From positions 7,972 to 71,971 of the forward strand of contig CAZIPE010000002.1 of NCBI GenBank assembly GCA_964541305.1: a DNA stretch of 64,000 nucleotides. The letters run 5' to 3'. The notes beneath the pieces are model-generated. The model did no database searches. It was given only the letters and a program-made list of their open reading frames with translations, and had not been told where the DNA came from. The number at the start of each line of letters is the position of its first letter. Positions within the stretch are counted from its first letter, which is position 1. Both the position numbers and the translations under genes were made by a program. Positions 6,986 through 57,409 of the stretch are shown here, one piece after another. This DNA comes from an uncultured Candidatus Saccharibacteria bacterium (GTDB lineage: Bacteria > Patescibacteriota > Saccharimonadia > Saccharimonadales > UBA7683).

Positions 6986-6991
6986 CCCTAT

Positions 6992-7000
6992 ATCTTATCA
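6992..7000 (-). promoter_or_regulatory. extended -10 box TGaTAAGAT, 6 nt upstream of the uvrC GTG
   Basis: The reverse complement of 6992-7000 is TGATAAGAT. The same 11-mer core (forward tatcttatcag) recurs at 53591-53601, upstream of the NUDIX-rsmA unit. Confidence 0.5.
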
Positions 7001-7137
7001 GAATCTACCAACTACATCTTGTTGGAGCGCTTTGACTGGCAGAACATTGTTTGTGTGGTTAGAGTCAAAATCATGATTGGAAAATGTGAATACTGAGTAT
7101 TAATACGATATAATTCTAGTGTGTTTAGAGAAAAACT

Positions 7138-7782
7138 ATGATTTCGCCTGGCTATGAAGGCCCCCTGATCAATCCATTGTCTCGAGATGAAGGGATCAAC
7201 CTTACGGTTGATTTGAGAGCAGCGCACCAGGGAGATGACTATCACAATGCCGATGTATTTGGGAGAGTAATCCACTATGGCGGAGTAAACTATCTAGAAG
7301 CAGAGATGAATCATGATCCAAAAAGATTTGAAGCCAAAGTTGAAGATCGAGTACGTGAACTGAAAGAAATTATAGCACCCCACATCGGTAGATGGGCGGC
7401 AGCCAAGCATAATAGGCTTGGGGTAATGAGTGAGACTGGTTGGGAGCTTTGGGAAAATAATTACGCAAGCACGAGGGTGATGCATACGAGTGGCATAATT
7501 CTTGGAGTATCTGGAGTGGCGTTGGATAAATGTATGTATTTCGATTATGATCACCCTGGTAGAGTCGACGAAGCACGGGTAGCCTCATGGCGTGGAGGTG
7601 CTTATAAAATTGGTGTCATTTTAGACACTACTCACACCAAGCCGGCGTTCTGTTACGGTGTTGAAGCACCAGAAACAAATAGAATGCTCGTACCAATCCG
7701 TGGCCTACCTAGTCGGAGAAGTTTATTCAACGGGATATGGTCTTGGCAAATTAGCGGCATAGACAAACACAGAATAAACTAG
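7138..7782 (+). CDS. hypothetical protein (214 aa), no family recognised
   Basis: Long ORF with an in-frame TAG 9 nt upstream of the ATG. A TATAAT box lies about 25 nt upstream (near 7107-7112). I recognise no motif. Confidence 0.5.
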   Translation: MISPGYEGPLINPLSRDEGINLTVDLRAAHQGDDYHNADVFGRVIHYGGVNYLEAEMNHDPKRFEAKVEDRVRELKEIIAPHIGRWAAAKHNRLGVMSETGWELWENNYASTRVMHTSGIILGVSGVALDKCMYFDYDHPGRVDEARVASWRGGAYKIGVILDTTHTKPAFCYGVEAPETNRMLVPIRGLPSRRSLFNGIWSWQISGIDKHRIN

Positions 7783-7895
7783 TTTCCCTTACGTCTTATC
7801 AGTTCAGTTTTCATATAAAACAACGTCCATACAGGTTAACGGACCAGTATGATAAAACATTAATTAATTGTGTGGCATTGTTTATAAGGGCAGAA

Positions 7896-9059: not shown

Positions 9060-9211
9060 GATTGTCTCTAACTATATCAGTATCATCATTTCAGTTCGAA
9101 TCTAGATTATTCAAATCGTATCAAAACCATTGTTTAGTCAAAAATACAGATAAATATGTACATTCTTTGGTACAACATTGTTTCCGAGGTTAGAACATTA
9201 GTTACAAATCC

Positions 9212-9240
9212 TTGACATTATTATTCAATTTTGCTATAAT
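9212..9240 (+). promoter_or_regulatory. consensus sigma70-type promoter TTGACA-17-TATAAT driving ORF 9249
   Basis: TTGACA at 9212-9217, a 17-nt spacer, then TATAAT at 9235-9240. The ATG at 9249 is only 8 nt downstream, which implies a leaderless or near-leaderless mRNA. Confidence 0.7.
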
Positions 9241-9248
9241 ATGTTATT

Positions 9249-14441: not shown

Positions 14442-14450
14442 ATTGTATCA
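14442..14450 (-). promoter_or_regulatory. extended -10 TGaTACAAT for trhO (8 nt upstream of the ATG)
   Basis: The reverse complement of 14442-14450 is TGATACAAT. The identical 9-mer occurs on the plus strand at 14481-14489 for the divergent ABC operon. Confidence 0.5.
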
Positions 14451-18927: not shown

Positions 18928-19015
18928 CTGTTGTAATTTCTCCTCAACTATTTTTCGTTAGTTTCCATTGTAACAGATATGCGCTTTAACTGAAAACTTG
19001 CTACAATAGATGAAG

Positions 19016-19681
19016 ATGATTAGCCTCTCACCTGAAAAAATTGTACGCGCGGGAATCTTTTTAGTTGCTGGTATTATTTTTGCAGAAAGCGGGCTACTAA
19101 TTGGCTTCTTTCTACCTGGTGATAGCCTCCTGTTTACTGCTGGATTCTTGGCAAGTCAAGATATCGTAAATGTTCATGTGCTTGCCGCAGTGTGTTTTAT
19201 TGCAGCCGTCGCGGGTGATAGCGTGGGCTATCATTTTGGTCACAGCGTTGGCCCAAAGTTGCTCAAAAAACCTGACGGCAAGATATTTAAAAAGCAATAT
19301 ATTGCAGAGGCGGAAGCCTTTTACGAAAAACATGGTAAAAAGACTATTATTATTGCTCGCTTTGTGCCAATTGTTCGGACATTTGCGCCAATTGTGGCCG
19401 GCATCGGAAAAATGCACTACAGAACCTTCCTGGCCTACAATGTCATCGGTGGTGCACTATGGACCCTTGGACTCACCTATGCAGGTTACTTCTTAGGACG
19501 CTCTGTTCCATGGGCGAAGGACTATCTAGAGCTCGTCATACTTGGGGTGATATTCTTGAGTCTTGTACCGAGTATTGTTCATGTTCTCAGTAAGGCTGAG
19601 CATCGTCAAAAACTGAAAGATTTACCTAAGGTTTCTCTCCGAAGAATTCGACAGATTATTAAACGAGCTGAAAAAGACTAG
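19016..19681 (+). CDS. DedA family (VTT domain) membrane protein
   Basis: Carries the DedA motif [16 protein letters not shown].. and RF.P..R. The track starts at ATG 19010. I prefer ATG 19016, which lies 8 nt after TGcTACAAT (19002-19007). Confidence 0.8.
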
Positions 19682-22488
19682 AGCACTTCTTTTAGATAGT
19701 TTCCGGTAAATGATTCTTTTACTTTTACTACTTCTTTTGGCGTACCTTCAGCAATAATTTGCCCGCCACCGTCACCACCTTCCGGACCCATATCAATAAT
19801 ATGATCGGCAGATTTTATAACATCAAGATTATGCTCGATGATCACCATTGAGTTGCCTGAATCGACTAACTTAGCCAGAACCGAAAGTAGCTTTTCTACA
19901 TCAGCAGCATGAAGACCGGTCGTCGGCTCATCAAGAATGTAGAGGGTCCGACCCGTTGGACGACGCGAAAGTTCGCTGGCAAGTTTAATGCGCTGAGCCT
20001 CACCACCCGACAGGGTCGTAGCTGGCTGTCCAAGATGGATGTAGCCCAATCCTACGTCATGCAATGTCTGCAATTTTCGTGCAATTGAAGGCTGATTCTC
20101 GAAAAAGTCTACTGCTTGATCAATCGTCATCGAAAGAACATCAGAAATATTCTTTCCTTTGTAGGTTATCTCGAGCGCTTCGCGGTTATATCGTTTACCC
20201 TTACAGATTTCGCAGGTGACATAGACATCGGGTAAAAAGTGCATTTCAATTTTTATAATGCCATCACCCTGGCAGTTTTCACAGCGCCCACCCTTAACAT
20301 TAAAACTAAACCGTCCCGGTTTGTAACCGCGAATATTAGCCTCGGGTGTACCAGAGAATAATTCACGAATTGGTGTGAATACTCCCGTGTAGGTAGCGGG
20401 GTTTGAGCGTGGAGTGCGACCAATTGGTGATTGATCTATAATTATGACCTTATCAAGATGTTCGATACCTTCGATGCTATCGTGCCTGCCTGGAACTTCG
20501 TGGGCACGGTGTAAGCGGGCTTGAAGCTCTTTTGCCAAAATGTCATTTATGAGTGATGATTTGCCTGAACCCGACACACCACTGACAACTACAAGCTTTC
20601 CAAGTGGGATAGTGACATCAATATTCTGTAAGTTATTTTCTGCCGCGCCTTTTACGACGATTTTTTTACCACTGCCTTTTCGATAGCTCTTTGGGGGTGC
20701 AATAACACGAGTACCACTCAAAAACTGGCCCGTAATGCTGTCTTTATTCTTTGCCACTGCACTGGGTGTGCCCGAGGCAATAACCTTACCGCCGTGCACA
20801 CCCGCACCTGGACCAATATCAATTAACCAATCTGCTGAACGGATTGTATCTTCGTCGTGCTCAACAACAATAACAGTATTATCGAGGTCACGAAGATGCT
20901 TAAGGGTTGCAATCAGGCGGTCGTTGTCTCGTTGATGAAGCCCGATAGATGGTTCATCGAGCACATATAACACCCCTGTTAAACCCGAGCCAATTTGAGT
21001 CGCCAGGCGAATGCGCTGTGCCTCACCGCCTGATAGTGTAGCCGCACTTCGGCTAAGGTTTAAATAATTCAGACCAACATTATTTAAAAACTTCAGTCGA
21101 GAATGAATCTCTTTGGCAACCTGGCTGACAATGTGTAGCTCAGCTTCAGAAAACGCTATCTTATCAAACCATTCAAGTGCTTTGACTACTGAAAAATCAG
21201 TTATATCTCTAATTGAAGCACCGTGGACTGTTACTGCAAGCACTTCTGGCTTTAACCGAGCCCCACTGCAGGTGTGGCAGGGGCGCTCACGCATAAATCG
21301 TTCAATGTCACGACGCATGAAGTCACTTTCAGTCTCCTTCCAACGACGTTCAAGATTTGGAATAACCCCCTCATAAGTGGTTTCAAAACTACGCCCCTGA
21401 CTTAAAGTGACGTTATATTTTTGGTCACCTGTTCCGTAGAGCACTTTTTCGATATCCACATCCTTCAACTCAGCTGTTGGTACATGCAAATTGAAGCCAT
21501 ACTTTTCGGCAACCGCCTGCATCTTCTTCATATACCACGCGTCTGCATTTACTCTGTTGAATGGTCGAATAGCACCTTCGGCAATGGTAAGATTACCATT
21601 TGGTATAACGAGTTCAGGATCCACCTCTAATCGCGAACCCAGACCTGTGCACGTTGGGCAGGCACCTTGAGGGGCGTTAAAACTAAACAATCGTGGCTCA
21701 AGTTCAGGAAGGGCAAGTTCGGGGTGATCAGGACAAGCGTAACGCTGAGACAGCAAGCTATCTTCATTGGTATCGGCGTTATGAATAATTAGTGATTCTT
21801 TGCCGAGTTCCAGCGCCTGCTCTATAGATTGAGTCAACCGACCCTGATGCGCGTCATCATTAGTAATACGATCAACTACAATTTCAATGGTATGCTTATA
21901 TTTTTTGTCTAGTTCAGGCCATTCATCAAGTGAATAAATAACACCATCTACACGAGCGCGCGCAAATCCACTGCGCTGATACTCGGCTGGAATATGTTCA
22001 AACTGCCCTTTTTTAGCGTTCACTATTGGAGCAAGTACTAATAGGCGGGCACCCTTCGGGAGTGAAAGCACCTCATCAACAATTGCCTGAGGAGTTAAGC
22101 GCTTAATTTCGTTTCCATCAATCGGGCAATGCGGTACACCGATACGGGCATAGAGCAATCGAAGGTAGTCGTATATTTCAGTGACCGTTGCAACAGTTGA
22201 GCGTGGGTTTCTTGAGGTAGACTTCTGATCAATTGATATCGCAGGTGAAAGCCCGTCTATCTGATCAACATCTGGCTTTTCCATAAGACCAAGGAACTGA
22301 CGAGCATATGAAGATAGTGATTCGACGTACCGGCGCTGGCCTTCTGCATAAATAGTATCAAATGCCAAAGAAGACTTTCCCGAACCCGAAAGCCCGGTAA
22401 TTACCACTAGTTTACCTCGCGGAATATCGAGATCTATGTTTTTTAAATTATGCTCGCGCGCTCCACGAACCGAAATAACCTCAGCCAT
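19678..22488 (-). CDS. uvrA: excinuclease ABC subunit A
   Basis: 936 aa with two ABC ATPase modules ([28 protein letters not shown], two LSGGEAQR signatures) and zinc-finger Cys clusters. Confidence 0.95.
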
Positions 22489-22504
22489 AAGATACCATTA
22501 TACC

Positions 22505-23164: not shown

Positions 23165-23230
23165 AATGTATTAATCCTCTTACTGCCCATGGTACAACAA
23201 ATAGCTGAGTTGTCTAGTATAATAAGTTGT

Positions 23231-23662
23231 ATGAAGGATAGAGCATATAGGTGGTGGAAGAATAAACCTTGGAGCCTGCGCAAGCCACTGGTTTTTGCGG
23301 TGGGTATTTTACTGATTATTATCGCTCCATTCATCGGGTTCATTCCGGGACCTGGTGGGATTCTTGTGTTTCTGCTCGGTATAGCTGTGTTGGCAAGTGA
23401 GTTTGACTGGGCACTTTCGCTCAAAGCGTTCTTTTTGAAAACTGTGCCGGCGGAAGTAAAAAAACGATGGAGACCAACTCAAAACTGGGAATATACTTTT
23501 GATATCACCACTGGCTGTCTACTCACTTCCTCTGTTATTTTTGGCTACTATGACTACTGGCTTCTTGCTGTATACTGTGGAATTCTCGGCACGTTACTTT
23601 TCATTTTCAACCGTAGCCGACTCGACCGTCTTAAATTGTATTTTGCAAAGCGAAAGAACTAG
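23231..23662 (+). CDS. PGPGW-motif small membrane protein
   Basis: Motif IPGPGGILVFLLGIAVLASEFDWA. Start trimmed to ATG 23231, which is 7 nt after TATAAT (23218-23223). Confidence 0.6.
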   Translation: MKDRAYRWWKNKPWSLRKPLVFAVGILLIIIAPFIGFIPGPGGILVFLLGIAVLASEFDWALSLKAFFLKTVPAEVKKRWRPTQNWEYTFDITTGCLLTSSVIFGYYDYWLLAVYCGILGTLLFIFNRSRLDRLKLYFAKRKN

Positions 23663-27547: not shown

Positions 27548-28882
<1,335 letters not shown>

Positions 28883-28898: not shown

Positions 28899-29177
28899 TT
28901 ACGGAAAAACATCTGGGAAGTTGACGTTGAACCAGGCAATCAACGTCTTCTTTACTGAAATACCTGTAGATTTTATAAGCAGCAGACTTACTGCGCTTAT
29001 GAGCGAGGGTATGATAAGAATCGGTATATCATCAGTTCGAATTCCACCAAGACCCACCAAAATGAACCCGACTACAAGCAAGAAGGTTGTTGAAAAATAG
29101 AAGATTGTTGGAACTACAAACAGAATTAAACTATTACGAGTTGTTTTTTGTTTTGATTTCTTTTTGGTTTTGCCCAT
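28899..29177 (-). CDS. small membrane protein (hypothetical, 92 aa)
   Basis: Lys-rich N-terminus followed by three hydrophobic helices. GAGGA SD 7 nt upstream. Confidence 0.4.
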   Translation of the reverse strand: MGKTKKKSKQKTTRNSLILFVVPTIFYFSTTFLLVVGFILVGLGGIRTDDIPILIIPSLISAVSLLLIKSTGISVKKTLIAWFNVNFPDVFP

Positions 29178-31829: not shown

Positions 31830-32245
31830 CAGGCGTGCTCCTTCACATAATCTTCTAAGATGAATGTTGCCGCCAAAGAATCAATATCAGCCTTTTCGTA
31901 GCTTTTACCACGAGATTCAAGTTCTTCTTCGGCCTTCACTGAGGTGAGCGATTCGTCTTGCCAGGCAAGGGTGGTCGTATCGGGAAGATGTAGTGCGTGA
32001 ACCGTTTCTTCTACTACTTTTGTTTGCACAGTTGGATCACCAGATTGATTGCGGGGATATCCGATAACAATAGTTGTAATCTGGTATTGATTAATTAGGT
32101 CGGTAATTGTCTCAGCAAGTTGATCGTTATTTTGCAGTGTCGTAACTGGGCGTGCAAAAAAAGTGGGGACTTCAGCAAGAGCCACCCCAACGCGCTTTTC
32201 ACCAACATCAAGTGAAAGCAAATTACCCTGCACTGTTTTCATCAA
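31829..32245 (-). CDS. ruvX: Holliday junction resolvase-like nuclease RuvX (YqgF)
   Basis: 138 aa with LLSLDVGEKRVGVA at the N-terminus and a DERLTS-like block (DESLTSV). Its stop overlaps the mltG start (TGATG). Confidence 0.85.
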   Translation of the reverse strand: MMKTVQGNLLSLDVGEKRVGVALAEVPTFFARPVTTLQNNDQLAETITDLINQYQITTIVIGYPRNQSGDPTVQTKVVEETVHALHLPDTTTLAWQDESLTSVKAEEELESRGKSYEKADIDSLAATFILEDYVKEHA

Positions 32246-33884
32246 CCTTTAATTCTATTTCGATCTTACTTGCACCCGGTGCTTTGCGTGCCCAGAAGGG
32301 TGTGAGGTTAATATCAGTACTCTTAACCCCTGGCAGGCTCTGAACATAGGATCGTATCTCACCAATCTTCTTGCCTGATACTTCTTGTTTGAGCTGTTCG
32401 ATATCAAACTTAGGACCATACTGACCGAGTGCACTCACTTTATAGACTGCCGTCTTACCGCTTACTTTAACTTTTTCAAACTGTGCATCTTTAACCCCAT
32501 CATCATACACTTGTTGCTGATCTTTATTGTCCATTTTAGTAGTAATGAATGCCTCGTTGGCAGCTTTTAAATCTGCTTCTTTAACACCCAACATAGTATA
32601 GGTTGCCTGCGCTGTAAGCTTGCCCTCGTTCGCTTCTTGGCCAACGGCTGGCTCACTCGTTGTCTGCCCAATGCTTGCGGTGAATGAATCACCGAGCACT
32701 TTAACTCCTTCGCCAAAACCCTTTTCAAGCTCGGTCTTTATATCTGCATTATCCTTCTTTGCAAGTTCAGCTTTAGCCTTATCAACATCAGCTTGAGAAA
32801 CTACTTTCACCACCTTAGATACGCCACCAGACATTTGTCCACCAGTACCTGTTACAGCACCGTAGCCATTTACCGTATATGTTGTTGGTCCAAGGTTATA
32901 CTGATCTCCATTCTTCTGAGCCTTCACCGTACTCGATCCAACAAAAGAGCATCCGTCATCAAAATTTGGGGTTGTGAGACTTACTGTTTGCTGTGTAATA
33001 AAGGTAAGCCCCTGCGCACTTACGCCCGTACCTGCGGGCACTTGAGTTGGTCCGTCTCCCACATCCGAACAAGCAATAGACAGAGTCATGCTACCCGATG
33101 CTTTTGAACCAAGGTCTTTTTCTCCTGTGGCTGTAAAGCTTTGAGTAACTGTCTTGCTCTCTTCTTGGACTTCGGCTCGGAAAGTATACGAGGCGGGATC
33201 TGATGTGCCACTGTCAGTAATGTTCGCTTCATAGGCAATTTCGACTGGGGTTGTTTCAGCACGAATGACAATGGTTGCTTTTGAGCGACCAAAAATGAAC
33301 AGGAGCGCAAACAGTACTAACGCAGTTATACCTGCAACTATGAGCATCTTCTTTTTGAAGGAATTAAAGTTCGGGACCTTCTTTTCTTTCTTCTTCTTGC
33401 CTTTGCTCGCTTTAGAATCGTTGGAATCGTCTCGTAGTTCGCCGTCGTTATCTAAATCTGAGGCTAAATCTTCACCGTTTATCTGAAGTTCATCTTCATC
33501 GCGTGCAGCCGCGGCGGCAGCAGCTCCTAATGCAGCTGGGGCAGCGAGCTCATTAACCGCATCAGTTACTTCAACAGAGTCATCCTCGGGCTCGGTTACT
33601 TCATCTGGCGTGGGAATATAGGGCTTAGACTGTAGATTCTTGGCAACATAGAGACCCAATCCACCAGCAAGTGCGAGGAGTGCATTGTTATTCGAGACAA
33701 TGACCGATTGCTTCTTGGCAGAGGTAGATGCTCGTTTGAGCAACTTGAGATTCACCGTACTCTGAAAAACAGTACTACCCTTTGGTGGTACGAGCGCAAT
33801 AATTTTTTCTTTACTATTCTTGAGCTTATCAATGACTGCAGTGATATCATCTTCAACATCAATGTAGATTACATCTTTTTTCAT
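32223..33884 (-). CDS. bitopic membrane protein of unknown function (553 aa) immediately downstream of ftsA
   Basis: Has a small N-terminal cytoplasmic domain (MKKDVIYIDVEDDITAVIDKLKNSKEKIIALVPPKGS..), an acidic/Lys-rich linker, one TM helix (MLIVAGITALVLFALLFIFG) and an extracytoplasmic domain of about 350 aa. Confidence 0.55.
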   Translation of the reverse strand: MKKDVIYIDVEDDITAVIDKLKNSKEKIIALVPPKGSTVFQSTVNLKLLKRASTSAKKQSVIVSNNNALLALAGGLGLYVAKNLQSKPYIPTPDEVTEPEDDSVEVTDAVNELAAPAALGAAAAAAARDEDELQINGEDLASDLDNDGELRDDSNDSKASKGKKKKEKKVPNFNSFKKKMLIVAGITALVLFALLFIFGRSKATIVIRAETTPVEIAYEANITDSGTSDPASYTFRAEVQEESKTVTQSFTATGEKDLGSKASGSMTLSIACSDVGDGPTQVPAGTGVSAQGLTFITQQTVSLTTPNFDDGCSFVGSSTVKAQKNGDQYNLGPTTYTVNGYGAVTGTGGQMSGGVSKVVKVVSQADVDKAKAELAKKDNADIKTELEKGFGEGVKVLGDSFTASIGQTTSEPAVGQEANEGKLTAQATYTMLGVKEADLKAANEAFITTKMDNKDQQQVYDDGVKDAQFEKVKVSGKTAVYKVSALGQYGPKFDIEQLKQEVSGKKIGEIRSYVQSLPGVKSTDINLTPFWARKAPGASKIEIELKVDENSAG

Positions 33885-37514: not shown

Positions 37515-37546
37515 TTTAGTTATTATAACAGATATAGGTCACTTGA

Positions 37547-39039: not shown

Positions 39040-39590
39040 CAGAGAATGTTCTTGGCTACTTCACCTATAGTAATCCACCAGCCATAGGGAGTGAGCCACC
39101 AGGTTTTCGGATTCCAGTTTTTATCATCTGCTGGTGCGTTGATTACTACCACATTTGGTAAAACAGCTTGAAGTTCTTTGTTGGCCCTTTTTTGATGATA
39201 TTCACTGGTTACAAGTATTATCTTCTTACTATCGGCCAGGTACGTCTTTACACCACTGGCGTTTTCTTTTGTGTCACGCGAATTTTCATCAATCCGTATG
39301 GCATCAGCGGGCACACCTTTTTGTATGGCGAGTTCCTGCATAACAAGCGCGTTACTCGGACTGTTTGGATCTTTGGCTGCGCCTGAAAAAACCAGTAATG
39401 GCGCGTAACCTTCGGAGTAGAGTGCAATGGCTTTTAAGGCGCGTGCCGTTGTGTCACCACCGCTCACCGCCACAATAGCATCGGCTTTTTCAAGCGGGTC
39501 TTTAGCTTGCAGAAATTGTGTCACACCAAAAATAGAGCCACCTACAACGACGATTATGAATACAAGAACTGCAATAAGTTTGCCCATCAT
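39039..39590 (-). CDS. DUF218 (YdcF/ElyC/SanA family) membrane-anchored protein
   Basis: N-terminal TM helix followed by the DUF218 pattern (DAIVAVSGGD..R...A..LY..G.AP.L.FSG...........GVP...I..E..S.DT.ENA; ILVTSEYH..RA). Confidence 0.7.
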   Translation of the reverse strand: MMGKLIAVLVFIIVVVGGSIFGVTQFLQAKDPLEKADAIVAVSGGDTTARALKAIALYSEGYAPLLVFSGAAKDPNSPSNALVMQELAIQKGVPADAIRIDENSRDTKENASGVKTYLADSKKIILVTSEYHQKRANKELQAVLPNVVVINAPADDKNWNPKTWWLTPYGWWITIGEVAKNIL

Positions 39591-39594
39591 TCTA

Positions 39595-40755
39595 TTATAC
39601 CAAGTGTGCATGTAGCTTTAATATACGAGACAAAATTTCGCTGGCGCGCGCAATTTCAGCTTTGGTAGTGTTCCGACCCAGCGTTACGCGCAGTGACGAA
39701 TTGGCCTCGTTAATAGATAGCCCACACGCACGCAGTACATGGCTCGGCTCATCGTTACTGGCCGTACATGCGCTCCCAGTGGCGACCATCACACCAGCCT
39801 CATCAAGCTCCATCACCAAGCGTTCACCGTCCACCCCAGCAATAGCGATATTAAGATTATTGGGCAGACGCATAGTGGGGTGACCGTTCAACGTGATTCC
39901 TGTGTGTTTTTGCGAAAGCATCGCAAGTAACTCATCCCGCATGAGTGTGAGTCGATCCGACTCCACTTTGCGGTCTTGTTGAACTTTTTGCAACATCGTC
40001 GCAAATGAGTGAATCGCCCCTACATTCTCAGTTCCGCTCCTCAAACCATCTTCCTGACCGCCACCTTTTATAAGGCTACTTAGTTCGGTGCCTGAACGTA
40101 CGTACACACAACCACTTTGCTTCATAGCATAGATCTTCCCGCCGTTTAATGTCATCAAATCAACTTTTGATCGTGAAACGTGCAAATCAAGATAATTTGC
40201 CGCCTGGCAGGCATCCGTATGTAAGTATATCGGCATCTGATTGCCTTGTTTCTCCCGCTCAGCACGTATCGTTTCAATAAGTGCCGAGATACGTCTGATG
40301 GGCTGTATGGTGCCAATTTCATTGTTGGCGTACATGACACTCACCAGAGCCGTGTTATCTGTTATAAGATCACCCAGTGCGCTAACATCGACTATACCGC
40401 TTGGATCTACAGGAATGTGTTTTACACGGTACACGCTTGCTGGCTCAAGGACTGATTCATGTTCAATGCTTGAAACGAGCACTTCACCGTCAGGATGTTG
40501 TCTCATTATTCCTTGTATGGCCAGATTATTGGCTTCTGTGCCACCAGCAGTAAATATGATCTCTTGCTCTTTTGCACCTAGTATCTGAGCCACGCTTGAA
40601 CGAGCACGGTCGACCGCTTTTCTCACTTCACGTGCCGACTGGTAGATGGCGGAAGGATTATAAAATACATCCTGTAAATAAGGTTGCATCGCTTCAATAG
40701 CCTCATCGGCCATCGGCGTTGCAGCCGCATAATCAAGATATAGTGGGGTGTCCAT
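39595..40755 (-). CDS. cysteine desulfurase (NifS/IscS-like, class V aminotransferase)
   Basis: 386 aa beginning LYLDYAAATP, with HTDACQA, a PLP-Lys region (SRSKVDLMTLNGGKIYA) and an active-site loop (ATGSACTAS). Confidence 0.9.
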   Translation of the reverse strand: MDTPLYLDYAAATPMADEAIEAMQPYLQDVFYNPSAIYQSAREVRKAVDRARSSVAQILGAKEQEIIFTAGGTEANNLAIQGIMRQHPDGEVLVSSIEHESVLEPASVYRVKHIPVDPSGIVDVSALGDLITDNTALVSVMYANNEIGTIQPIRRISALIETIRAEREKQGNQMPIYLHTDACQAANYLDLHVSRSKVDLMTLNGGKIYAMKQSGCVYVRSGTELSSLIKGGGQEDGLRSGTENVGAIHSFATMLQKVQQDRKVESDRLTLMRDELLAMLSQKHTGITLNGHPTMRLPNNLNIAIAGVDGERLVMELDEAGVMVATGSACTASNDEPSHVLRACGLSINEANSSLRVTLGRNTTKAEIARASEILSRILKLHAHLV

Positions 40756-40772
40756 GGCTTCTATTGTAGCAA

Positions 40773-42263: not shown

Positions 42264-42328
42264 AGTTTCTTACAGATGAGCTTAAACAGCAAACCAAATC
42301 TGCTCGTTTTTAGCGTACAATAAAAGCT

Positions 42329-42862
42329 ATGTTTAACTGGCTCTCACAGATGATGATAGTAACCTCAATGGTCATTCCCTACGCTACCTCTACTTCAACG
42401 AAATTTGAAAGCTTGCCAATTAAGCCAACTCAAGATCAAATTGAATGCAGAACTCAGTCGTGGGAAAAAGAAAATCTCACTACTGTTACCAGCGCCCAGG
42501 TAGACAAAAAACTTGCACCGTACATTGAAAAGCTTATAGCTGATGCACGGCTCAGTGGTAATAATTTTCTAATTAACTCGGGCTATCGAACCTGTGCCTT
42601 GCAAGCAAGCCTACGCGTCTCTTCTTGTGGCGGAAATGATAACTACAACAAAAACCTTAAGCCAGCAGACCTCTGTTCTCCGCCAACCGAACCCGCTGGC
42701 CGAAGTCTGCACAATGACGGTCTCGCAGTAGACTTTGCCTGCCAAGGGTACGGCGTTTTGGAGTACTCCCCCTGCTACAGCTGGTTACAAAAAAATGCCT
42801 ACAAATACCAACTTATTAATCGCCCTGGCGAACCTTGGCACTGGTCCACCACTGGTAGGTAA
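42329..42862 (+). CDS. M15B (VanY-like) D-alanyl-D-alanine carboxypeptidase family protein
   Basis: Has an N-terminal signal/TM, SGYRT, the zinc-ligand motif SLHNDGLAVDF, and EPWHW. The ATG is 7 nt after TACAAT (42316-42321). Confidence 0.75.
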   Translation: MFNWLSQMMIVTSMVIPYATSTSTKFESLPIKPTQDQIECRTQSWEKENLTTVTSAQVDKKLAPYIEKLIADARLSGNNFLINSGYRTCALQASLRVSSCGGNDNYNKNLKPADLCSPPTEPAGRSLHNDGLAVDFACQGYGVLEYSPCYSWLQKNAYKYQLINRPGEPWHWSTTGR

Positions 42863-46425: not shown

Positions 46426-46457
46426 CAGCTACTAGCTTATCAAGCTGAGGGGTGTGG

Positions 46458-48555: not shown

Positions 48556-49128
48556 TCATGTAGCACTTCTCTGCTTTAAATATGTAGCAAGCAATGTCTG
48601 CATCTGAGTCTCATTCGGGTCTACTATGTCATTCTCTAAATTATAGAGTTGATGCACTTTAATCGCTTCCATCTGATCAATAAGATCTATCTCAGTCTTG
48701 TTTAGACGATTAACACAGGTTCTGAAGTCAAATATGTAGTCACTAGAAAAAACCTTAGCAAAAAGATGCTTCGCTCTTGAAAGGTGAAATTTACTCGTAA
48801 CAAGTATTATCGAATGCCAGTTATGAGAATCCACTATTTCTTTACAAAATAGAGCATTTTCATACGTATTTTTTGATTTTGATTCAGTTATTATTGCTTC
48901 TTCACGAATACCAATAGTTAGAGCGTAGTCCTTCATCGACTCAGCCTCTGATTTGTGGGGCTTATAGTGATGTAGGTGCGATACGTCTCCTGAAAATATA
49001 ACTACATCAGACTCCCGAGAAGTAAGAGTGTCCGCCGCCAACTGCACACGACTCTTGCCTTCATTGGGCAACAAACCGTCTTCAGTCACGTCAAACCCCA
49101 GGACAACAACTACATCAAATTTTTTCAT
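48556..49128 (-). CDS. DUF218 (YdcF family) protein, second copy, no TM anchor
   Basis: 190 aa with the DUF218 pattern (VVVLGFDV..DG.L.....R...A.......DVVIFSG; ILVTSKFHLSRA). Confidence 0.65.
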   Translation of the reverse strand: MKKFDVVVVLGFDVTEDGLLPNEGKSRVQLAADTLTSRESDVVIFSGDVSHLHHYKPHKSEAESMKDYALTIGIREEAIITESKSKNTYENALFCKEIVDSHNWHSIILVTSKFHLSRAKHLFAKVFSSDYIFDFRTCVNRLNKTEIDLIDQMEAIKVHQLYNLENDIVDPNETQMQTLLATYLKQRSAT

Positions 49129-49290
49129 ATCTGAGTCTCAGTATATCATTCAAAAAAATTGATTGGGTGACGAATTTGTGCGAAAAAAGTGGCACCACAT
49201 ACTTATAGAACAGATGAGACGGAGAGATTTGCTTTATGTTGAATACAACCGTCACAAGAAAGGCTTTATACCCTAAGAGTGATGTACTTG

Positions 49291-50019: not shown

Positions 50020-50062
50020 TTACCATAGTATAAAGGAGTACTGATTAATTAGCGATCCCGCT

Positions 50063-50117: not shown

Positions 50118-50511
50118 TGGTGGAGATGCCGAGTACTGCCCTCGGGTCCGAAAAGTAACCATCTGCTCATCTACGTGCGTAGTTTATCCTGAAATTTTAC
50201 AAACCTTACTTATAGAGGAAAAACAAAAACAAAGAAGATTTGTTATCAGTAAAATGTCGAATGTTTCGCTGATAAACCGAAACAAACCGAGCCAAATAAT
50301 ATGACACCGGAAACCGCACTATTTGACATCATGCGACCGGTGGCGTACCTAAATTAGGCAACTTGCATAGCAAACGTGTTAACGCGGAAAGCGTTAGCAA
50401 CAGATGCTACGACTTGTTTAATTGTTTTTGCAATTAAAATGTGAATTACGTTCACGTTCGACACGCCAAGCAGATTGTTAAAGTCTCTTCGTCTAAAGCT
50501 ATGTCATCCCC
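50118..50511 (-). ncRNA. ssrA: transfer-messenger RNA (tmRNA, 394 nt)
   Basis: The 5' end GGGGAUGACAUAGCUUUAGACG pairs with the 3' end CAUCUCC-ACCA to form an acceptor stem containing a G3-U wobble. The 3' end UUUUCGGAC-CCGAG-GGCAGUA-CUCGG-CAUCUCCACCA parallels the E. coli tmRNA 3' end (UUUCGGAC-stem-loop-stem-..CUCCACCA). An internal tag frame reads GUA GCA UCU GUU GCU AAC GCU UUC CGC GUU AAC ACG UUU GCU AUG CAA GUU GCC UAA (..ANAFRVNTFAMQVA*), with the stop at 50354-50356. Confidence 0.85.
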
Positions 50512-50579
50512 TCGTCAACACAGTGGAGCTTGACTACTCCATATTTATATTATAGCACATTTTATTACTATTTTCTACA

Positions 50580-51875: not shown

Positions 51876-51991
51876 TTTTTTGTCCTTTTCGTTATGTAAT
51901 ACTTAAGTGATTACTTAAAGTATAGCTTGTTTAGGTTAGTGTTTCAAATAGACATTTTTTATAAGTAATTACATCTGTTATAGTATGCCCT

Positions 51992-53585: not shown

Positions 53586-53602
53586 ACGTCTATCTTATCA
53601 GA

Positions 53603-54721: not shown

Positions 54722-54764
54722 GTAATTATTACGCTAGGTACATACACACTAACGTATGTGTGTA

Positions 54765-55241
54765 TTATACCATGCGGGAGATACCAGAAAGCTCCAGCCC
54801 GACATCCACAGTCTCGCTTCTAACTTTCGGTAGTTGATCAATCTTCCACCATTTTACATCCATAATTTCATACGGTCGTGTAACCCGAACTGTACTAATT
54901 TTTGAAACAGGCGCATCAAAAAATTCAAGATTTGCACGTGGCCACTTTTTACCAGCTGGTAATTTTCGAATACCGATACTTTTCATATCTTTCGTGCTAA
55001 TAACAAGAGAGGTTTCTTCAAGTAACTCTCGGGCTGCAGCAAGAACTGATTCTTCGCCTTTATGCACACCGCCGCCCGGCAAACTCCATTTTTGTGAGCC
55101 GAAAGATGACCTAATGAGCAGTATCTCATGTTTGGCATGGACCACCACTCGCACTCGCTCAGAATTATGAAGCAATAACCCAGAAAGTGGCTGTGTAACA
55201 AAGTGTGCTGTGCGAAATAATTTTTGTGTCACTATATTCAT
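54765..55241 (-). CDS. NUDIX hydrolase (second copy)
   Basis: 158 aa with a Nudix box GGGVHKGEESVLAAARELLEETS. Confidence 0.75.
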   Translation of the reverse strand: MNIVTQKLFRTAHFVTQPLSGLLLHNSERVRVVVHAKHEILLIRSSFGSQKWSLPGGGVHKGEESVLAAARELLEETSLVISTKDMKSIGIRKLPAGKKWPRANLEFFDAPVSKISTVRVTRPYEIMDVKWWKIDQLPKVRSETVDVGLELSGISRMV

Positions 55242-57382
55242 GAGAGCAACTCGAGTGGTGCAAAGCTTGCATTAAGTTTTTTTACCCCTTTGCCAGAAAA
55301 GGCAATTGAGAGCATTTCACCATCAACACCAACAATGGTACCCACCCCAAATAATTGATGTCTCACCTTGGCACCAACTGATGCTTGTATTTGAGGTACG
55401 TGGCTAAAATCTTCAGTAAAATCCGGTTGGGCTTCGGGGAGTCCGAAAGCTGATTGCTGAACGGGTGGCTGTTTTAAAATTGAGCTATCGATATCACTTA
55501 AGAAGCGCGAAGGCGGATTGTGTTGAGAAGAGCCGTATAGCATACGTGACGTTGAATAGTACATAAATAGTTCTTCACGGGCGCGCGTCATGCCAACATA
55601 GCACAGACGTCGCTCTTCTTCCATTTCACTCGGCTCAAACAACGCCCGCGAATGTGGGAAGATTGATTCTTCCATTCCTGTTAAAAAGACGACGGGAAAC
55701 TCGAGGCCCTTAGCGGCGTGAAGTGTCATCAAGGTAACCGCACCCGACGATTGATCGAGTCCGTCAAGATCGGAGATGAGTGCCACTTCTTCCAAGAAGC
55801 CATCAAGCCCGACGTCGTCGTATTCACGAGCCACCGATGAAAGCTCCTTTACGTTTTCGATTCTCTCAGCTGACTGAGGTGATTCGTCGTCTAGGTGTTG
55901 CAAAAATTCAGTTCGCTTAACCACCGCGTCAATAAATTGACTCGGTCGATACTCATCTTTCATCACACGAATATCATTGATAAGATTTCCGAGTTCAATA
56001 AGACCCTTAAGGGGCTTGCCTGAGACACCCTGACATTCTGCCACTCGCCCAAGCGCTTCAGCCAATGTTAGTTCGTTCGTATCCATCCAGTCAAAAAAGT
56101 TTTGCAAGCTTTTGGCGCCAACACCCCTAGTGGGTACATTTACGATTCTTAGAAAACTCGTTTGGTCATTTGGCTGGTAGGCAAGGCGAATATAGGCCAG
56201 AATATCTTTTATCTCTTTACGATCATAAAAACGAACACCTCCTACAACTTTATAGGGCACACCATAACGAATAAATGATTCTTCCAAACTTCGACTCTGG
56301 GCATTAGTCCGGTATAGCACTGCAAAATCTTGAAAGCTACGGGCTCGAATATCAACTTGAGATTTTATTCGCCTGACAATACTTTCACCCTCTTGTGATT
56401 CACTGCTGACTTGAATAATCTGAACGGGATTTCCTGGACCTGCCTTTGTCCAAAGTTCTTTATCGCTACGTTGTTCATTTTTAGTTATAACCAGATGTGC
56501 CGCATCAAGTATATTTTTGGTGCTTCGGTAGTTTTCTTCTAGCTTTACAATTTTTGCATTAGGAAAGTCTGTTTCAAAATTAAGAATGTTCCTGAAATCA
56601 GCACCTCTCCAACTGTAAATCGACTGCCAGTCATCACCTACCACGCACAAGTTTTGCGCGTCACTTAGTAGTAACTTTATAAGCTTATACTGTGCCCCAT
56701 TAGTATCTTGGTACTCATCTACCATGATATATTTAAACTGTTTTTGCCACTTTTCTCGCAGTTCTTCGTTATTTTTTAGCATATCGACCGTTCGGCCAAT
56801 GAGATCGTCGAAATCTAATGCACCTGCTTCACGAAGTGCTTTTTCGTACTCAGGATATATCGCGGCGGCAGCTTTTTGTTGCGGCAACGTTGCGCTGGCA
56901 AGGTATTCACTCGGACCTACAAGTTCGTTCTTAGCGCCACTAATCAGCCCTGCGAGGGTTCGTGGTTTAAATTCTTTATCATTTATATGTTGTTTTTTAG
57001 CTACCTGCTTAATAAGACTTTGTCGATCTGATTCGTCAAAGATAACAAAGTTTCTAGGAATACCAACCGCCTCGCCATCTTGACGTAACAGCCGTACACA
57101 AATGGAGTGAAAGGTGCCCATGAAAGGCATAAAGCTACGATTTTGATGATCTTGACCGACAAGTTCCGCTACGCGTTCTCTCATTTCTTTAGCGGCTTTG
57201 TTGGTGAAGGTTACTGAAAGTATCTCATATGGACTGACACCATTTTGAATCAGGTAGGCTATGCGGTGGGTCAGTGTTTTGGTTTTTCCACTACCCGCAC
57301 CAGCTAAAATAAGTAGTGGTCCATCTTGCCAACACACTGCTTCAGCTTGGTTTTTGTTTAACCCGTTTAGGAGATCATTCAC
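55238..57382 (-). CDS. pcrA: ATP-dependent DNA helicase UvrD/PcrA
   Basis: 714 aa with SF1 motifs AGAGSGKT, TFTNKAA, VDEYQDTN, YRS, TLHAAKGLEF and YVGMTRA. The GTG start is 7 nt after TGcTATACT. Confidence 0.95.
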   Translation of the reverse strand: MNDLLNGLNKNQAEAVCWQDGPLLILAGAGSGKTKTLTHRIAYLIQNGVSPYEILSVTFTNKAAKEMRERVAELVGQDHQNRSFMPFMGTFHSICVRLLRQDGEAVGIPRNFVIFDESDRQSLIKQVAKKQHINDKEFKPRTLAGLISGAKNELVGPSEYLASATLPQQKAAAAIYPEYEKALREAGALDFDDLIGRTVDMLKNNEELREKWQKQFKYIMVDEYQDTNGAQYKLIKLLLSDAQNLCVVGDDWQSIYSWRGADFRNILNFETDFPNAKIVKLEENYRSTKNILDAAHLVITKNEQRSDKELWTKAGPGNPVQIIQVSSESQEGESIVRRIKSQVDIRARSFQDFAVLYRTNAQSRSLEESFIRYGVPYKVVGGVRFYDRKEIKDILAYIRLAYQPNDQTSFLRIVNVPTRGVGAKSLQNFFDWMDTNELTLAEALGRVAECQGVSGKPLKGLIELGNLINDIRVMKDEYRPSQFIDAVVKRTEFLQHLDDESPQSAERIENVKELSSVAREYDDVGLDGFLEEVALISDLDGLDQSSGAVTLMTLHAAKGLEFPVVFLTGMEESIFPHSRALFEPSEMEEERRLCYVGMTRAREELFMYYSTSRMLYGSSQHNPPSRFLSDIDSSILKQPPVQQSAFGLPEAQPDFTEDFSHVPQIQASVGAKVRHQLFGVGTIVGVDGEMLSIAFSGKGVKKLNASFAPLELLS

Positions 57383-57409
57383 TCGGACCAGTATAGCAAA
57401 TAAGTATGC

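What the first reader, a model, noticed from the sequence alone, without database searches (positions are those of the whole stretch)
6986..57395. Recurrent architecture: extended -10 box 6-9 nt upstream of the start codon in at least 14 genes (leaderless mRNAs)
Seen in sequence, listed as -10 box / start codon.

Plus strand:
- TATAAT 9235-9240 / ATG 9249
- TGcTACAAT (box 19002-19007) / ATG 19016
- TATAAT 23218-23223 / ATG 23231
- TACAAT 42316-42321 / ATG 42329
- TGtTATAGT (box 51979-51984) / ATG 51992

Minus strand:
- TGaTAAGAT 6992-7000 / GTG 6985 (uvrC)
- TGaTACAAT 14442-14450 / ATG 14433 (trhO)
- TATAAT 22497-22502 / ATG 22488 (uvrA)
- TATAAT 28853-28858 / ATG 28843 (obg)
- TGgTATAAT 35192-35200 / ATG 35183 (ftsA)
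- TGaTAAGCT 46434-46442 / ATG 46425 (trehalase)
- TATACT 50027-50032 / ATG 50019
- TGaTAAGAT 53592-53600 / ATG 53585 (NUDIX)
- TGcTATACT 57390-57398 / GTG 57382 (uvrD)

None of these genes has a usable SD. Genes internal to operons, or with longer leaders, do have one (AGGAGG before 14650, GGAGG before 16400, AAGGA before 13456, AAGGAG before 27520, GAGGA before 61509).

Established knowledge: transcription starts about 7 nt after the -10 hexamer, so these mRNAs would begin at or within 1-2 nt of the start codon.

Inference: first genes of transcription units in this organism are predominantly leaderless. This also helps choose start codons where the ORF track over-extends. uvrC and the NUDIX-rsmA unit share an identical 11-nt core (CTGATAAGATA).
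Basis: partly seen in the sequence, partly recalled or inferred. Interest (0 to 1): 0.55.

Follow-up and report, generated by a model that had tools for sequence, protein, structure and literature searches.

The report
Leaderless-type promoters in a Saccharibacteria genome
About a third of the genes in this piece of a Saccharibacteria (TM7) genome carry a promoter -10 box only 6-9 bases before their start codon, so their mRNAs should begin at or next to the start codon; this "leaderless mRNA" strategy is well known in other bacteria, but I found no description of it for this group.

Summary
All 14 box/start-codon pairs are at the stated coordinates, and I found 6-8 more.

- **Position and specificity:** Strict -10 hexamers peak sharply 6-9 nt upstream of gene starts. 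There were 12 genes against 1.3±1.1 in dinucleotide shuffles, and 0.7% at internal in-frame ATG/GTG. The signal is specific to TATAAT rather than to AT-richness.
- **Promoter type:** 15 of 22 boxes carry the TGn extension, against 8% of such hexamers elsewhere. There is no -35 signal.
- **Organism:** The window is from a Saccharibacteria (TM7/Patescibacteria) genome.
- **Conservation:** The architecture is present in about 66 of 80 Saccharibacteria obg loci, often fused to an upstream terminator hairpin. It is present in 19 of 28 Saccharibacteria-like uvrA loci, against 3 of 52 in other lineages.
- **Start codons:** Independent gene calls and family-profile N-termini agree with the start codons.
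- **Other genes:** Overlapping or internal genes use Shine-Dalgarno sites.

The best explanation (confidence 0.8) is extended -10 promoters producing leaderless mRNAs, or mRNAs with a 0-3 nt leader. This is the known "group C" architecture of Actinobacteria and Deinococcus, here in a lineage for which I found no published description.

"Predominantly" is somewhat overstated: about half of the unambiguous first genes and about a third of all genes fit. No TSS data exist to prove it.

The parts
4261..4280 (-). TGcTATAAT (hexamer 4272-4277), gap 8, ATG 4263; holin-superfamily-IV membrane protein.
   Evidence: Pfam; independent gene call starts at 4263
5495..5510 (-). TACAAT 5505-5510, gap 7, ATG 5497; aminopeptidase P. 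Lies in a 15-nt gap after uvrC.
   Evidence: Pfam; gene call of 403 aa
6983..7000 (-). TGaTAAGAT (weak hexamer 6992-6997), gap 6, GTG 6985; uvrC.
   Evidence: NCBIfam residue 5 aligns to profile position 1; gene call of 490 aa
9212..9251 (+). Perfect TTGACA (9212-9217)-17 nt-TGcTATAAT (9235-9240), gap 8, ATG 9249; 280-aa protein with no family match.
   Evidence: gene call of 280 aa
14431..14450 (-). TGaTACAAT (14442-14447), gap 8, ATG 14433; trhO.
   Evidence: NCBIfam; gene call starts at 14433
18999..19018 (+). TGcTACAAT (19002-19007), gap 8, ATG 19016; DedA family. The upstream ATG 19010 lies only 2 nt after the box.
   Evidence: NCBIfam
22486..22502 (-). TATAAT 22497-22502, gap 8, ATG 22488; uvrA. 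Lies in a 16-nt gap after the upstream gene.
   Evidence: conserved in 19/28 Saccharibacteria-like loci; NCBIfam; gene call
23218..23233 (+). TATAAT 23218-23223, gap 7, ATG 23231; PGPGW membrane protein of 143 aa.
   Evidence: Pfam; gene call of 143 aa
28841..28858 (-). TATAAT 28853-28858, gap 9, ATG 28843; obg.
   Evidence: conserved in about 66/80 Saccharibacteria obg loci
32240..32257 (-). Tentative: TAGAAT 32252-32257, gap 9, ATG 32242; ruvX. The box lies inside the overlapping upstream gene.
   Evidence: gene call of 137 aa
35181..35200 (-). TGgTATAAT (35192-35197), gap 8, ATG 35183; ftsA/PilM-like.
   Evidence: NCBIfam; gene call of 427 aa
37512..37530 (-). TGtTATAAT (37522-37527), gap 7, ATG 37514; alanyl-tRNA synthetase (628 aa).
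   Evidence: Pfam; gene call
39585..39602 (-). TGgTATAAT (39594-39599), gap 6, ATG 39587; DUF218. The box contains the TAA stop codon of the upstream gene. The independent gene caller chose ATG 39590, which is 3 nt after the box.
40753..40771 (-). TGcTACAAT (40763-40768), gap 7, ATG 40755; class-V aminotransferase.
   Evidence: Pfam; gene call
42316..42331 (+). TACAAT 42316-42321, gap 7, ATG 42329; VanY-type carboxypeptidase.
   Evidence: Pfam; gene call of 177 aa
46423..46461 (-). TTGACC (46456-46461)-16 nt-TGaTAAGCT (weak hexamer 46434-46439), gap 8, ATG 46425; trehalase.
   Evidence: NCBIfam; gene call of 421 aa
50017..50032 (-). TATACT 50027-50032, gap 7, ATG 50019; M15/VanX-like dipeptidase.
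   Evidence: gene call of 242 aa
51976..51994 (+). TGtTATAGT (51979-51984), gap 7, ATG 51992; 115-aa protein.
   Evidence: gene call of 115 aa
53583..53600 (-). TGaTAAGAT (weak hexamer 53592-53597), gap 6, ATG 53585; NUDIX hydrolase, followed by SD-led rsmA (ATG 53029).
   Evidence: gene calls of 167 aa and 246 aa
57380..57398 (-). TGcTATACT (57390-57395), gap 7, GTG 57382; pcrA/uvrD helicase.
   Evidence: NCBIfam residue 4 aligns to profile position 1; gene call of 714 aa
9057..9079 (-). Variant with a longer gap: TGaTATAGT (9071-9076), gap 11, ATG 9059; MFS transporter. Predicted leader about 3-5 nt.
   Evidence: Pfam; gene call
49126..49148 (-). Variant with a longer gap: TGaTATACT (49140-49145), gap 11, ATG 49128; second DUF218 gene.
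   Evidence: Pfam; gene call
50549..50557 (-). TGcTATAAT in front of the tmRNA gene (50511-50118), about 31 nt before the mature 5' end. Shows the same box in front of an untranslated gene.

Best explanation
These are genuine housekeeping-sigma (sigma-70/SigA type) promoters of the extended -10 class (TnTGnTATAAT), mostly without a -35 element. Each is placed so that RNA polymerase starts 7-9 nt downstream of the hexamer. That is at the A/G of the start codon or 1-3 nt before it.

The resulting mRNAs have no Shine-Dalgarno sequence and are translated by the leaderless route, in which the ribosome plus initiator tRNA binds a 5'-terminal AUG/GUG. Genes that overlap or closely follow another gene in an operon use ordinary SD sites instead.

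The arrangement is a lineage-wide trait of Saccharibacteria, not a peculiarity of this window.

Shown here: motif, register, enrichment, conservation and start-codon assignment.

Inferred: the exact transcription start and the translation mechanism.
For: 1. Position and specificity:
- Strict -10 hexamers peak at gaps 6-9 before gene starts (13/56 genes, p = 3e-8).
- Twelve genes were observed against 1.28 +/- 1.12 in shuffles, and 0.7% at internal in-frame ATG/GTG.
- Thirteen of 17 exact TAYAAT-N6-9-ATG matches are at gene starts.
- Same-composition hexamers are not enriched.

2. Polymerase-specific features:
- TG sits at -15/-14 in 15/22 boxes, against 36/446 strict hexamers elsewhere.
- There is a perfect 12/12 consensus promoter with TG 8 nt before ATG 9249.
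- The weak trehalase hexamer is compensated by TTGACC plus TG.
- The identical TGcTATAAT precedes the tmRNA gene, and TACAAT precedes tRNA-Leu. Neither gene is translated.

3. Conservation:
- About 66/80 Saccharibacteria obg loci keep TATAAT/TATACT 6-10 nt before the conserved MFVD start.
- In 37 of these, a covarying RNA hairpin with a T-tract ends 4-9 nt before the hexamer, and exactly 5 nt before it in 28. A non-read-through obg transcript must therefore start between the hairpin and the ATG.
- For uvrA, 19/28 Saccharibacteria-like loci have the box, against 3/52 in other lineages, which mostly have SD (Fisher p = 6e-9).
- Non-obg and non-uvrA genes in relatives show the same peak. Genes of other lineages run through the same pipeline show none.

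4. Start codons are independently supported by family-profile N-termini and by gene calls on independent assemblies.

5. A dual system is present:
- SD 4-mers peak at spacing 8-10 before other genes.
- Operons run box-first then SD: obg then CYTH, NUDIX then rsmA, trhO then the next gene.
- This is the pattern GeneMarkS-2 defines as group C, with the Pribnow box 6-8 nt from the start (PMC6028130).
Against: - No transcription-start data are available for this organism. In the only Saccharibacteria TSS set I found cited (188 RNA-seq TSS of N. lyticus), the -10-to-TSS distance was reported as unusually variable, and leaderless mRNAs were not discussed (PMC12641261).
- The modal gaps (7-8 nt here, 9-10 nt at uvrA in relatives) are 1-3 nt longer than the E. 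coli optimum of 6. Many transcripts may therefore carry a 1-4 nt leader.
- Three hexamers are weak.
- Many boxes lie in 13-32 nt gaps between co-directional genes with no terminator. Read-through transcripts would carry the same start codons internally, so some other initiation route (re-initiation or scanning) may also act.
- About 15 genes show neither signal.
Confidence: 0.8

Rival explanations
1. The motif is real and positioned, but it acts in the RNA as a non-Shine-Dalgarno translation signal. Examples would be an AU-rich S1-binding or unstructured element on leadered or polycistronic mRNAs, as in GeneMarkS-2 'group B' genomes such as Bacteroidetes.
For: - Many boxes lie in short gaps between co-directional genes with no terminator. 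Polycistronic RNAs carrying the motif upstream of the start codon must therefore exist.
- The region is A/T-rich and C-poor.
Against: - The signal is specific to TATAAT/TACAAT/TATACT with invariant T1, A2 and T6, not to AU-richness.
- It carries TG exactly one base upstream.
- One site has a perfect -35.
- The same box precedes tmRNA and tRNA genes.
- In relatives it directly follows a terminator hairpin.
- Overlapping or internal genes use SD, not this motif. That fails the group-B criterion of one motif before all genes (PMC6028130).
Confidence: 0.06
2. The boxes are true promoters, but transcription starts further from the start codon than assumed, or the true start codons lie downstream. 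The mRNAs would then have short conventional leaders (more than 5 nt) rather than being leaderless.
For: - Gaps reach 9-13 nt at uvrA in relatives and 11 nt at two window genes.
- The window also has clear short-leader cases: TATAAT 23 nt before ATG 7138, and TACAAT about 29 nt before ATG 58974 with an AAGGTGG.
Against: - For the 20 core sites the first in-frame start codon downstream of the box matches family-profile N-termini and independent gene calls.
- With gaps of 6-9 nt, no known polymerase geometry leaves more than about 3 nt of leader.
- No SD fits in the interval.
Confidence: 0.1
3. Chance or artefact: AT-rich intergenic sequence, stop codons embedded in TATAAT/TATAGT that bound ORFs, or start-codon choice biased by the reader.
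For: - The window is only 44% GC.
- TAA inside TATAAT is in frame with the start at gap 8, so it can define the ORF boundary.
- TACAAT-N6-9-ATG is not over-represented by raw count (6 against 3.6).
Against: - Shuffle, internal-ATG and permutation controls all reject it.
- The peak is as strong at gap 7 as at gap 8, and it includes stop-free hexamers (TACAAT, TATACT).
- The same ORF pipeline gives no peak in other lineages.
- Orthologous conservation across 60-77% identical proteins cannot arise by chance.
Confidence: 0.02

Closest known systems
Leaderless transcription units of Actinobacteria and Deinococcus-Thermus (GeneMarkS-2 'group C'; M. tuberculosis, M. smegmatis, D. deserti)
   Same: - A Pribnow-type TANNNT box lies 6-8 nt from the start codon of first genes, with no SD there and SD at internal genes.
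- A quarter to a half of transcription units are affected.
- GUG is tolerated as well as AUG.
(PMC6028130; PMC3898074, PMC4633059 and PMC3160421, listed.)
   Different: - The lineage is Saccharibacteria/Patescibacteria, 44% GC and about a 1-Mb genome. I found no paper describing the trait in this group.
- The hexamer is close to full TATAAT, with a frequent TGn extension, rather than a bare TANNNT.
- The modal gap is 7-8 rather than 6-7.
- Boxes commonly sit in 13-32 nt gaps between co-directional genes, or are fused to the upstream terminator.
Extended -10 (TGn) promoters of E. coli and Gram-positive bacteria (the -16 'TRTG' region)
   Same: - TG lies one base upstream of the hexamer, and T two bases further up (T at -5 relative to the hexamer in 59-76% of sites).
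- No -35 is required.

   Different: - Here this class appears to be the default for start-codon-adjacent promoters.
- The sigma factor contact was not tested.
Phage lambda cI mRNA from PRM (the textbook leaderless mRNA)
   Same: Transcription starts at the A of the AUG, and there is no SD (PMC10491246, listed).
   Different: That is a single regulated phage gene. Here the arrangement is a genome-wide default for housekeeping genes.
Non-SD ribosome-binding motifs of Bacteroidetes/FCB ('group B')
   Same: An A/T-rich motif lies a short distance upstream of start codons that lack SD.
   Different: Group B has one motif before all genes, including internal ones, and it cannot be a promoter. Here internal genes use SD, and the motif has promoter-specific features.

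Membership tests
Leaderless-mRNA architecture (GeneMarkS-2 group C) | A -10 (Pribnow) box with a sharp positional preference about 6-10 nt upstream of start codons | tested here: met
   Peak at gaps 6-9. Shuffle and internal-ATG controls. Pattern counts.
Leaderless-mRNA architecture (GeneMarkS-2 group C) | No SD at those genes, while other (internal or overlapping) genes in the same genome have SD | tested here: met
   No SD at any of the 22 sites. About 20 other genes have GGAG/GAGG/AGGA at spacing 4-12, and SD 4-mers peak at 8-10. The absence of SD at the box sites is partly forced, because the hexamer occupies the SD position.
Leaderless-mRNA architecture (GeneMarkS-2 group C) | Mapped transcription start within 0-5 nt of the start codon | not testable with these tools
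   There are no RNA 5'-end data. The start is inferred from the 7-9 nt distance rule only.
Leaderless-mRNA architecture (GeneMarkS-2 group C) | The start codon assignment is correct (AUG/GUG at the predicted 5' end) | tested here: met
   Profile N-termini: uvrC 5->1, uvrA 2->3, pcrA 4->1, AlaRS 5->1, aminopeptidase 7->1. Independent gene calls agree at 19 of 20 sites checked. There are 20 ATG and 2 GTG starts.
Leaderless-mRNA architecture (GeneMarkS-2 group C) | Conservation of the arrangement in orthologous loci of related genomes | tested here: met
   obg in about 66/80 loci. uvrA in 19/28, against 3/52 in other lineages.
Extended -10 promoter class | TG dinucleotide at -15/-14 (one base upstream of the hexamer) | tested here: met
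   15/22 curated sites. 8/15 at starts against 36/446 elsewhere, Fisher p = 1.4e-5. G is 70% at that column across 116 sites.
Extended -10 promoter class | The -35 element is dispensable or absent | tested here: met
   Best -35 match averages 2.77/6, against 2.48 at random positions. There is no information content at -35 columns. The generic -35/-10 scan is not enriched (50 against 40.8 +/- 7.7).
Non-SD RBS genomes (group B, Bacteroidetes-like) | The same upstream motif precedes all genes, including internal operon genes | tested here: not met
   Overlapping or internal genes carry SD and lack the TATAAT motif.
Intrinsic terminator (hairpin upstream of obg in relatives) | GC-rich stem-loop followed by a T-tract downstream of a co-directional gene, with RNA-level pairing | tested here: met
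   Found in 37/66 loci. The stem is 7-11 bp and the tail is TTTG. Compensatory changes occur at outer stem pairs, and U.G wobbles are present on this strand only. The upstream gene is a CHAP hydrolase. Termination activity itself was not tested.

The most novel reading that the evidence does not exclude
Saccharibacteria as a whole, and possibly other Patescibacteria, express roughly a third of their genes from a minimal ~20-bp 'TGnTATAAT-N7-8-ATG' module.

The module can be slotted into 13-32 nt gaps between co-directional genes, can overlap the previous stop codon, or can be fused to the previous terminator. Expression would then be organised largely gene by gene through leaderless mRNAs rather than through SD-led operons.

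This would be a trait so far unreported for the candidate phyla radiation. It is shared with their actinobacterial hosts and with Terrabacteria lineages such as Actinobacteria and Deinococcus.
Probability: 0.5. Interest if true: 0.5.

Novelty: new member of a known kind. Interest (0 to 1): 0.4.

Why it matters
- **Gene starts:** It gives a simple, testable rule for gene starts in Saccharibacteria genomes. Most of these are metagenome-assembled and are annotated by tools without a leaderless model. Here it resolves trhO (14433, not 14547), DedA (19016, not 19010), the holin-like gene (4263) and PGPGW (23231).
- **Genetic tools:** It tells people who now engineer Saccharibacteria what a minimal native promoter looks like, and that no ribosome-binding site is needed behind it.
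- **Wider context:** It adds a deep-branching, ultrasmall, ribosome-reduced lineage to the list of bacteria that rely heavily on leaderless translation. That is relevant to how this mechanism is distributed and maintained.
- **Limits:** It does not reveal a new mechanism.

Tried and rejected
- **Generic -35/-10 scan:** Not enriched overall, so classical two-hexamer promoters are not the signal. Only the site at 9212-9240 stands out.
- **-35 element at the sites:** None found.
- **AT-richness:** Rejected by the permutation-hexamer control.
- **ORF-boundary artefact (TAA inside TATAAT):** Considered and rejected. Gap 7 is as frequent as gap 8, stop-free hexamers behave the same, and other lineages give no peak with the same pipeline.
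- **Shared 11-mer CTGATAAGATA as a regulatory site:** Two copies only, within a constrained frame. Not pursued.
- **Literature searches** for leaderless plus Saccharibacteria, TM7, Patescibacteria or CPR, and for anti-SD in CPR:
  - Only incidental citations turned up.
  - The TM7x transcriptome preprint contains no mention of TSS, UTR or promoter.
  - Supplements of PMC6028130 and PMC12641261 are not held. I could therefore check neither the GeneMarkS-2 group assignment of Saccharibacteria nor the TM7x TSS list.
- **RNAalifold on the obg hairpin:** It mis-registered two inner pairs. The covariation cited comes from the outer pairs only.
- **Two DNA-search runs:** They failed on pattern syntax.

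Full report
**What is in the sequence**

The window is 41-46% GC.

Eleven of the hexamers match TATAAT in at least 5 of 6 positions, including T1, A2 and T6. Three are weak (TAAGAT at uvrC and NUDIX, TAAGCT at trehalase), but all three carry a TGn extension. The trehalase box also has TTGACC at a 16-nt spacing.

- uvrC, trhO, uvrA, an FtsA/PilM-like protein, trehalase, a NUDIX hydrolase and a PcrA/UvrD helicase.
- The remaining genes are a DedA protein, a VanY peptidase, an M15 dipeptidase, a PGPGW membrane protein and two proteins with no family match.

**Is it more than chance?**

I called ORFs mechanically (longest ORF, greedy non-overlap), so that start codons were not chosen with promoters in mind.

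- A strict -10 hexamer lies at gap 6-9 in 13 of 56 genes, against 10 hits spread over the other 37 gap positions (binomial p = 3e-8).
- With a -10 weight matrix, 12 genes score at least 6 bits at gap 5-10. In 2000 dinucleotide-preserving shuffles of the upstream 60 nt the count is 1.28 ± 1.12, with a maximum of 6.
- At internal in-frame ATG/GTG codons the rate is 3/448.
- A start-agnostic count over every ATG/GTG that opens at least 100 codons shows the same spike at gaps 7-8.
- The signal is not AT-richness. Exact TATAAT is 31-fold enriched per position at gaps 6-10 relative to gaps 14-40. The other 19 arrangements of three A and three T are not enriched, apart from one-base shifts of TATAAT.
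- With the pattern tool, TATAAT-N6-9-ATG occurs 11 times against 3.1 ± 1.75 expected.
- Of the 17 exact TATAAT/TACAAT-N6-9-ATG matches, 13 sit at gene starts and one is the tmRNA promoter.

I considered one possible artefact: the TAA inside TATAAT is in frame with the start at gap 8, so it could define ORF boundaries. This does not explain the data. Gap 7 is as frequent as gap 8, stop-free hexamers (TACAAT, TATACT) behave the same way, and the same pipeline gives no peak on genes from other lineages.

Screening the first 80 codons of every ORF and curating the result adds several sites:
- ATG 4263 (TGcTATAAT, gap 8)
- ATG 5497 (TACAAT, gap 7)
- ATG 37514 (TGtTATAAT, gap 7; AlaRS)
- ATG 39587 (TGgTATAAT, gap 6)
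- ATG 40755 (TGcTACAAT, gap 7)
- a tentative TAGAAT before ruvX (32242)
- two gap-11 variants (9059 and 49128)

That makes 20-22 of about 60 genes. About 20 further genes have a GGAG/GAGG/AGGA at spacing 4-12, and about 15 have neither signal. SD 4-mers peak at spacing 8-10.

Several units run "box first, then SD": obg then CYTH, NUDIX then rsmA, trhO then the next gene.

**Promoter-specific features**

- Fifteen of the 22 boxes have TG one base upstream. For strict hexamers elsewhere in the window the figure is 36/446 (8/15 against 36/446 in the unbiased set, Fisher p = 1.4e-5).
- Across 116 such sites in the window and its relatives, the column two bases before the hexamer is 70% G and the next one up is 68% T. 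A further T lies two bases beyond that.
- There is no -35 signal. The best -35 match averages 2.77/6, against 2.48 at random positions. A generic -35/-10 scan is not enriched (50 against 40.8 ± 7.7).
- That scan's top hit is nonetheless a perfect TTGACA-17-TGcTATAAT ending 8 nt before ATG 9249.
- The same TGcTATAAT precedes the tmRNA gene, about 31 nt before the mature end. A TACAAT precedes tRNA-Leu.
- The box is therefore this organism's general promoter element, not a translation signal.

**Whose genome, and is the arrangement conserved?**

The Obg protein finds its best relatives, up to 77% identical, only among Candidatus Saccharibacteria (TM7, Patescibacteria/CPR) genomes.

*obg.* In the 80 obg loci fetched, about 66 have TATAAT/TATACT 5-11 nt before the conserved MFVD start, with a mode of 8.
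- In 37 of them a 7-11 bp GC-rich hairpin with a T-tract ends 4-9 nt before the hexamer, and exactly 5 nt before it in 28.
- The hairpin follows a co-directional LysM/CHAP hydrolase gene.
- It shows compensatory changes in its outer pairs, and U·G wobbles that pair only on this strand. It is therefore an RNA-level, terminator-like element.
- Its TTTG tail supplies the TG of the extended -10.
- Any obg transcript that is not read-through must begin in the roughly 20 nt between the hairpin and the ATG.

*uvrA.* A scan of metagenome contigs gave a natural contrast.
- Of 28 Saccharibacteria-like loci (66-76% identity), 19 have a strict -10 at 8-13 nt (mode 9-10) and 6 have switched to an SD-led short leader.
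- Of 52 loci from other lineages (59-62% identity), 3 have such a box. All three are at 68-70% GC, a composition typical of actinobacteria, a group known for leaderless mRNAs.
- Thirty-three of those 52 have SD only (Fisher p = 6e-9).

*Neighbouring genes.* In both sets of Saccharibacteria loci the neighbours show the same positional peak: 31 of 91 hits at gaps 6-10 (p = 5e-8), and a peak at gaps 6-7.

**Are the start codons right?**

- Family profiles align to within a few residues of the proposed N-termini:
  - uvrC 5→1
  - uvrA 2→3
  - PcrA 4→1
  - trhO 11→1
  - AlaRS 5→1
  - aminopeptidase P 7→1
  - aminotransferase 6→2
- The window's proteins are found on independently assembled contigs (Logan assemblies of SRR14932662, SRR14932695 and others).
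- The gene calls on those contigs start at 4263, 5497, 6985, 9249, 14433, 22488, 23231, 28843, 32242, 35183, 37514, 40755, 42329, 46425, 50019, 51992, 53585 and 57382, and also at 9059 and 49128.
- The one disagreement is the DUF218 gene. It is called at ATG 39590, which lies only 3 nt after the box, whereas ATG 39587 lies 6 nt after it.

**How it most likely works**

*Shown.* A TnTGnTATAAT element sits at a fixed short distance from start codons that have no SD. It is conserved across a class of bacteria and is absent in front of overlapping genes.

*Established knowledge.* Extended -10 promoters need no -35. RNA polymerase starts 7-9 nt after the hexamer and prefers a purine preceded by a pyrimidine. 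A 5'-terminal AUG is sufficient for initiation on leaderless mRNAs. In M. tuberculosis the Pribnow box lies 6-8 nt from leaderless starts (PMC6028130).

*Inferred.* With gaps of 6-9 nt, transcripts begin at the A/G of the start codon or 1-3 nt before it, and are translated by the leaderless route.

The base before the start codon is T in 64% of these sites against 36% in other genes. That figure is dominated by obg.

Because 8 of 12 co-directional gaps of 13-32 nt carry a box and have no room for a terminator, these genes probably exist both on their own leaderless RNA and on read-through RNA. How they are translated from read-through RNA is open.

- Of 16 genes with a divergent upstream neighbour (unambiguous first genes), 7 have the box at 6-9 nt, 1 has it at 11 nt, 5-6 are SD-led and the rest are unclear. 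"About half" is fairer than "predominantly".
- The boxes are also not confined to first genes.
- The shared CTGATAAGATA is real but is only a two-copy match inside a constrained frame.

**Comparison with what is known**

This is the architecture that GeneMarkS-2 calls group C. It has been mapped experimentally in mycobacteria, Corynebacterium, Streptomyces and Deinococcus (PMC6028130; PMC3898074, PMC4633059 and PMC3160421, listed).

I found no paper linking leaderless mRNAs to Saccharibacteria, TM7, Patescibacteria or the CPR in about 8 million full texts:
- The TM7x transcriptome preprint does not mention TSS, UTR or promoters.
- A 2025 promoter survey used 188 RNA-seq-derived TM7x TSS and only remarked on a variable -10-to-TSS distance (PMC12641261).
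- A CPR ribosome study reports loss of the anti-SD only in a Parcubacteria subgroup. This fits the continued use of SD in this window (PMC9297842).
- The Saccharibacteria genetics paper borrowed whole tuf and rpsJ upstream regions as promoters (PMC10633639).

I could not check the GeneMarkS-2 supplementary tables, so the software may already classify these genomes as group C.

**Verdict**

The mechanism is of a known kind, found in a lineage where it appears not to have been described.

- Confidence in the leaderless or near-leaderless reading: 0.8.
- Interest: 0.4. It is useful for annotating and engineering CPR bacteria and mildly informative for the distribution of leaderless translation, but a specialist would not find it very surprising.

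Noticed in passing
window 1771-1786 (+): tRNA-Leu (1786-1872) has a TACAAT box at 1771-1776, only 9 nt before its mature 5' end. The precursor would therefore carry almost no 5' leader. This is a single case, and its relevance to RNase P processing is unknown.
   Followed up: partly
window 50511-50557 (-): The tmRNA gene (50118-50511) is preceded by TGcTATAAT (50549-50557). The predicted precursor leader is about 31 nt and contains a GGAG...CTCC hairpin.
   Followed up: partly
L009-L077, about 45 nt upstream of obg (e.g. L016:2956-2992): A hairpin conserved in sequence (aTCGCCTCTGTyAAa.CAGGGGCGAt) follows the LysM/CHAP hydrolase gene. It ends exactly 5 nt before the obg -10 box in 28 genomes. 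Its TTTG tail doubles as the TG of the extended -10. Its loop, CTGTCA, lies 18 nt from the hexamer and could double as a -35. Compensatory changes occur in the outer stem.
   Followed up: partly
window 39594-39599 (-): The TAA stop codon of the class-V aminotransferase gene (39595-39597) lies inside the TATAAT box of the next gene (DUF218). Two ATGs follow, at 3 nt and 6 nt; the gene caller chose the first and the promoter geometry favours the second.
   Followed up: partly
L081-L108, upstream of uvrA: Within Saccharibacteria-like genomes uvrA alternates between a start-codon-adjacent -10 box (19/28) and an SD-led short leader with the -10 about 30 nt upstream (6/28). The box-type loci share CGGTT or CGACTT just before the ATG, and a CTAGAAAA/CTGGAAAA motif about 18 nt upstream of the box.
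   Followed up: partly
window 28899-29177 (-): A 92-aa SD-led membrane-protein gene lies between the LysM/CHAP hydrolase gene and obg. In most relatives the hydrolase gene is followed directly by the terminator-promoter junction. In this genome the obg box has no hairpin upstream.
   Followed up: no
window 35628-37514 (-) and 5513-6985 (-): AlaRS is only 628 aa and ends right after the second additional domain. UvrC is only 490 aa, and its profile match skips roughly profile positions 234-358. Both are shortened versions of normally larger proteins.
   Followed up: no
window 7092-7140 (+) and 58975-59010 (-): These are short-leader promoters rather than leaderless ones. A TATAAT lies 23 nt before ATG 7138 with no SD. 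A TACAAT lies about 29 nt before ATG 58974 with an AAGGTGG SD-like element.
   Followed up: no
window 39039-39587 (-) and 48556-49128 (-): There are two DUF218 paralogues, each preceded by a TG-extended -10 box (gaps 6 and 11).
   Followed up: no
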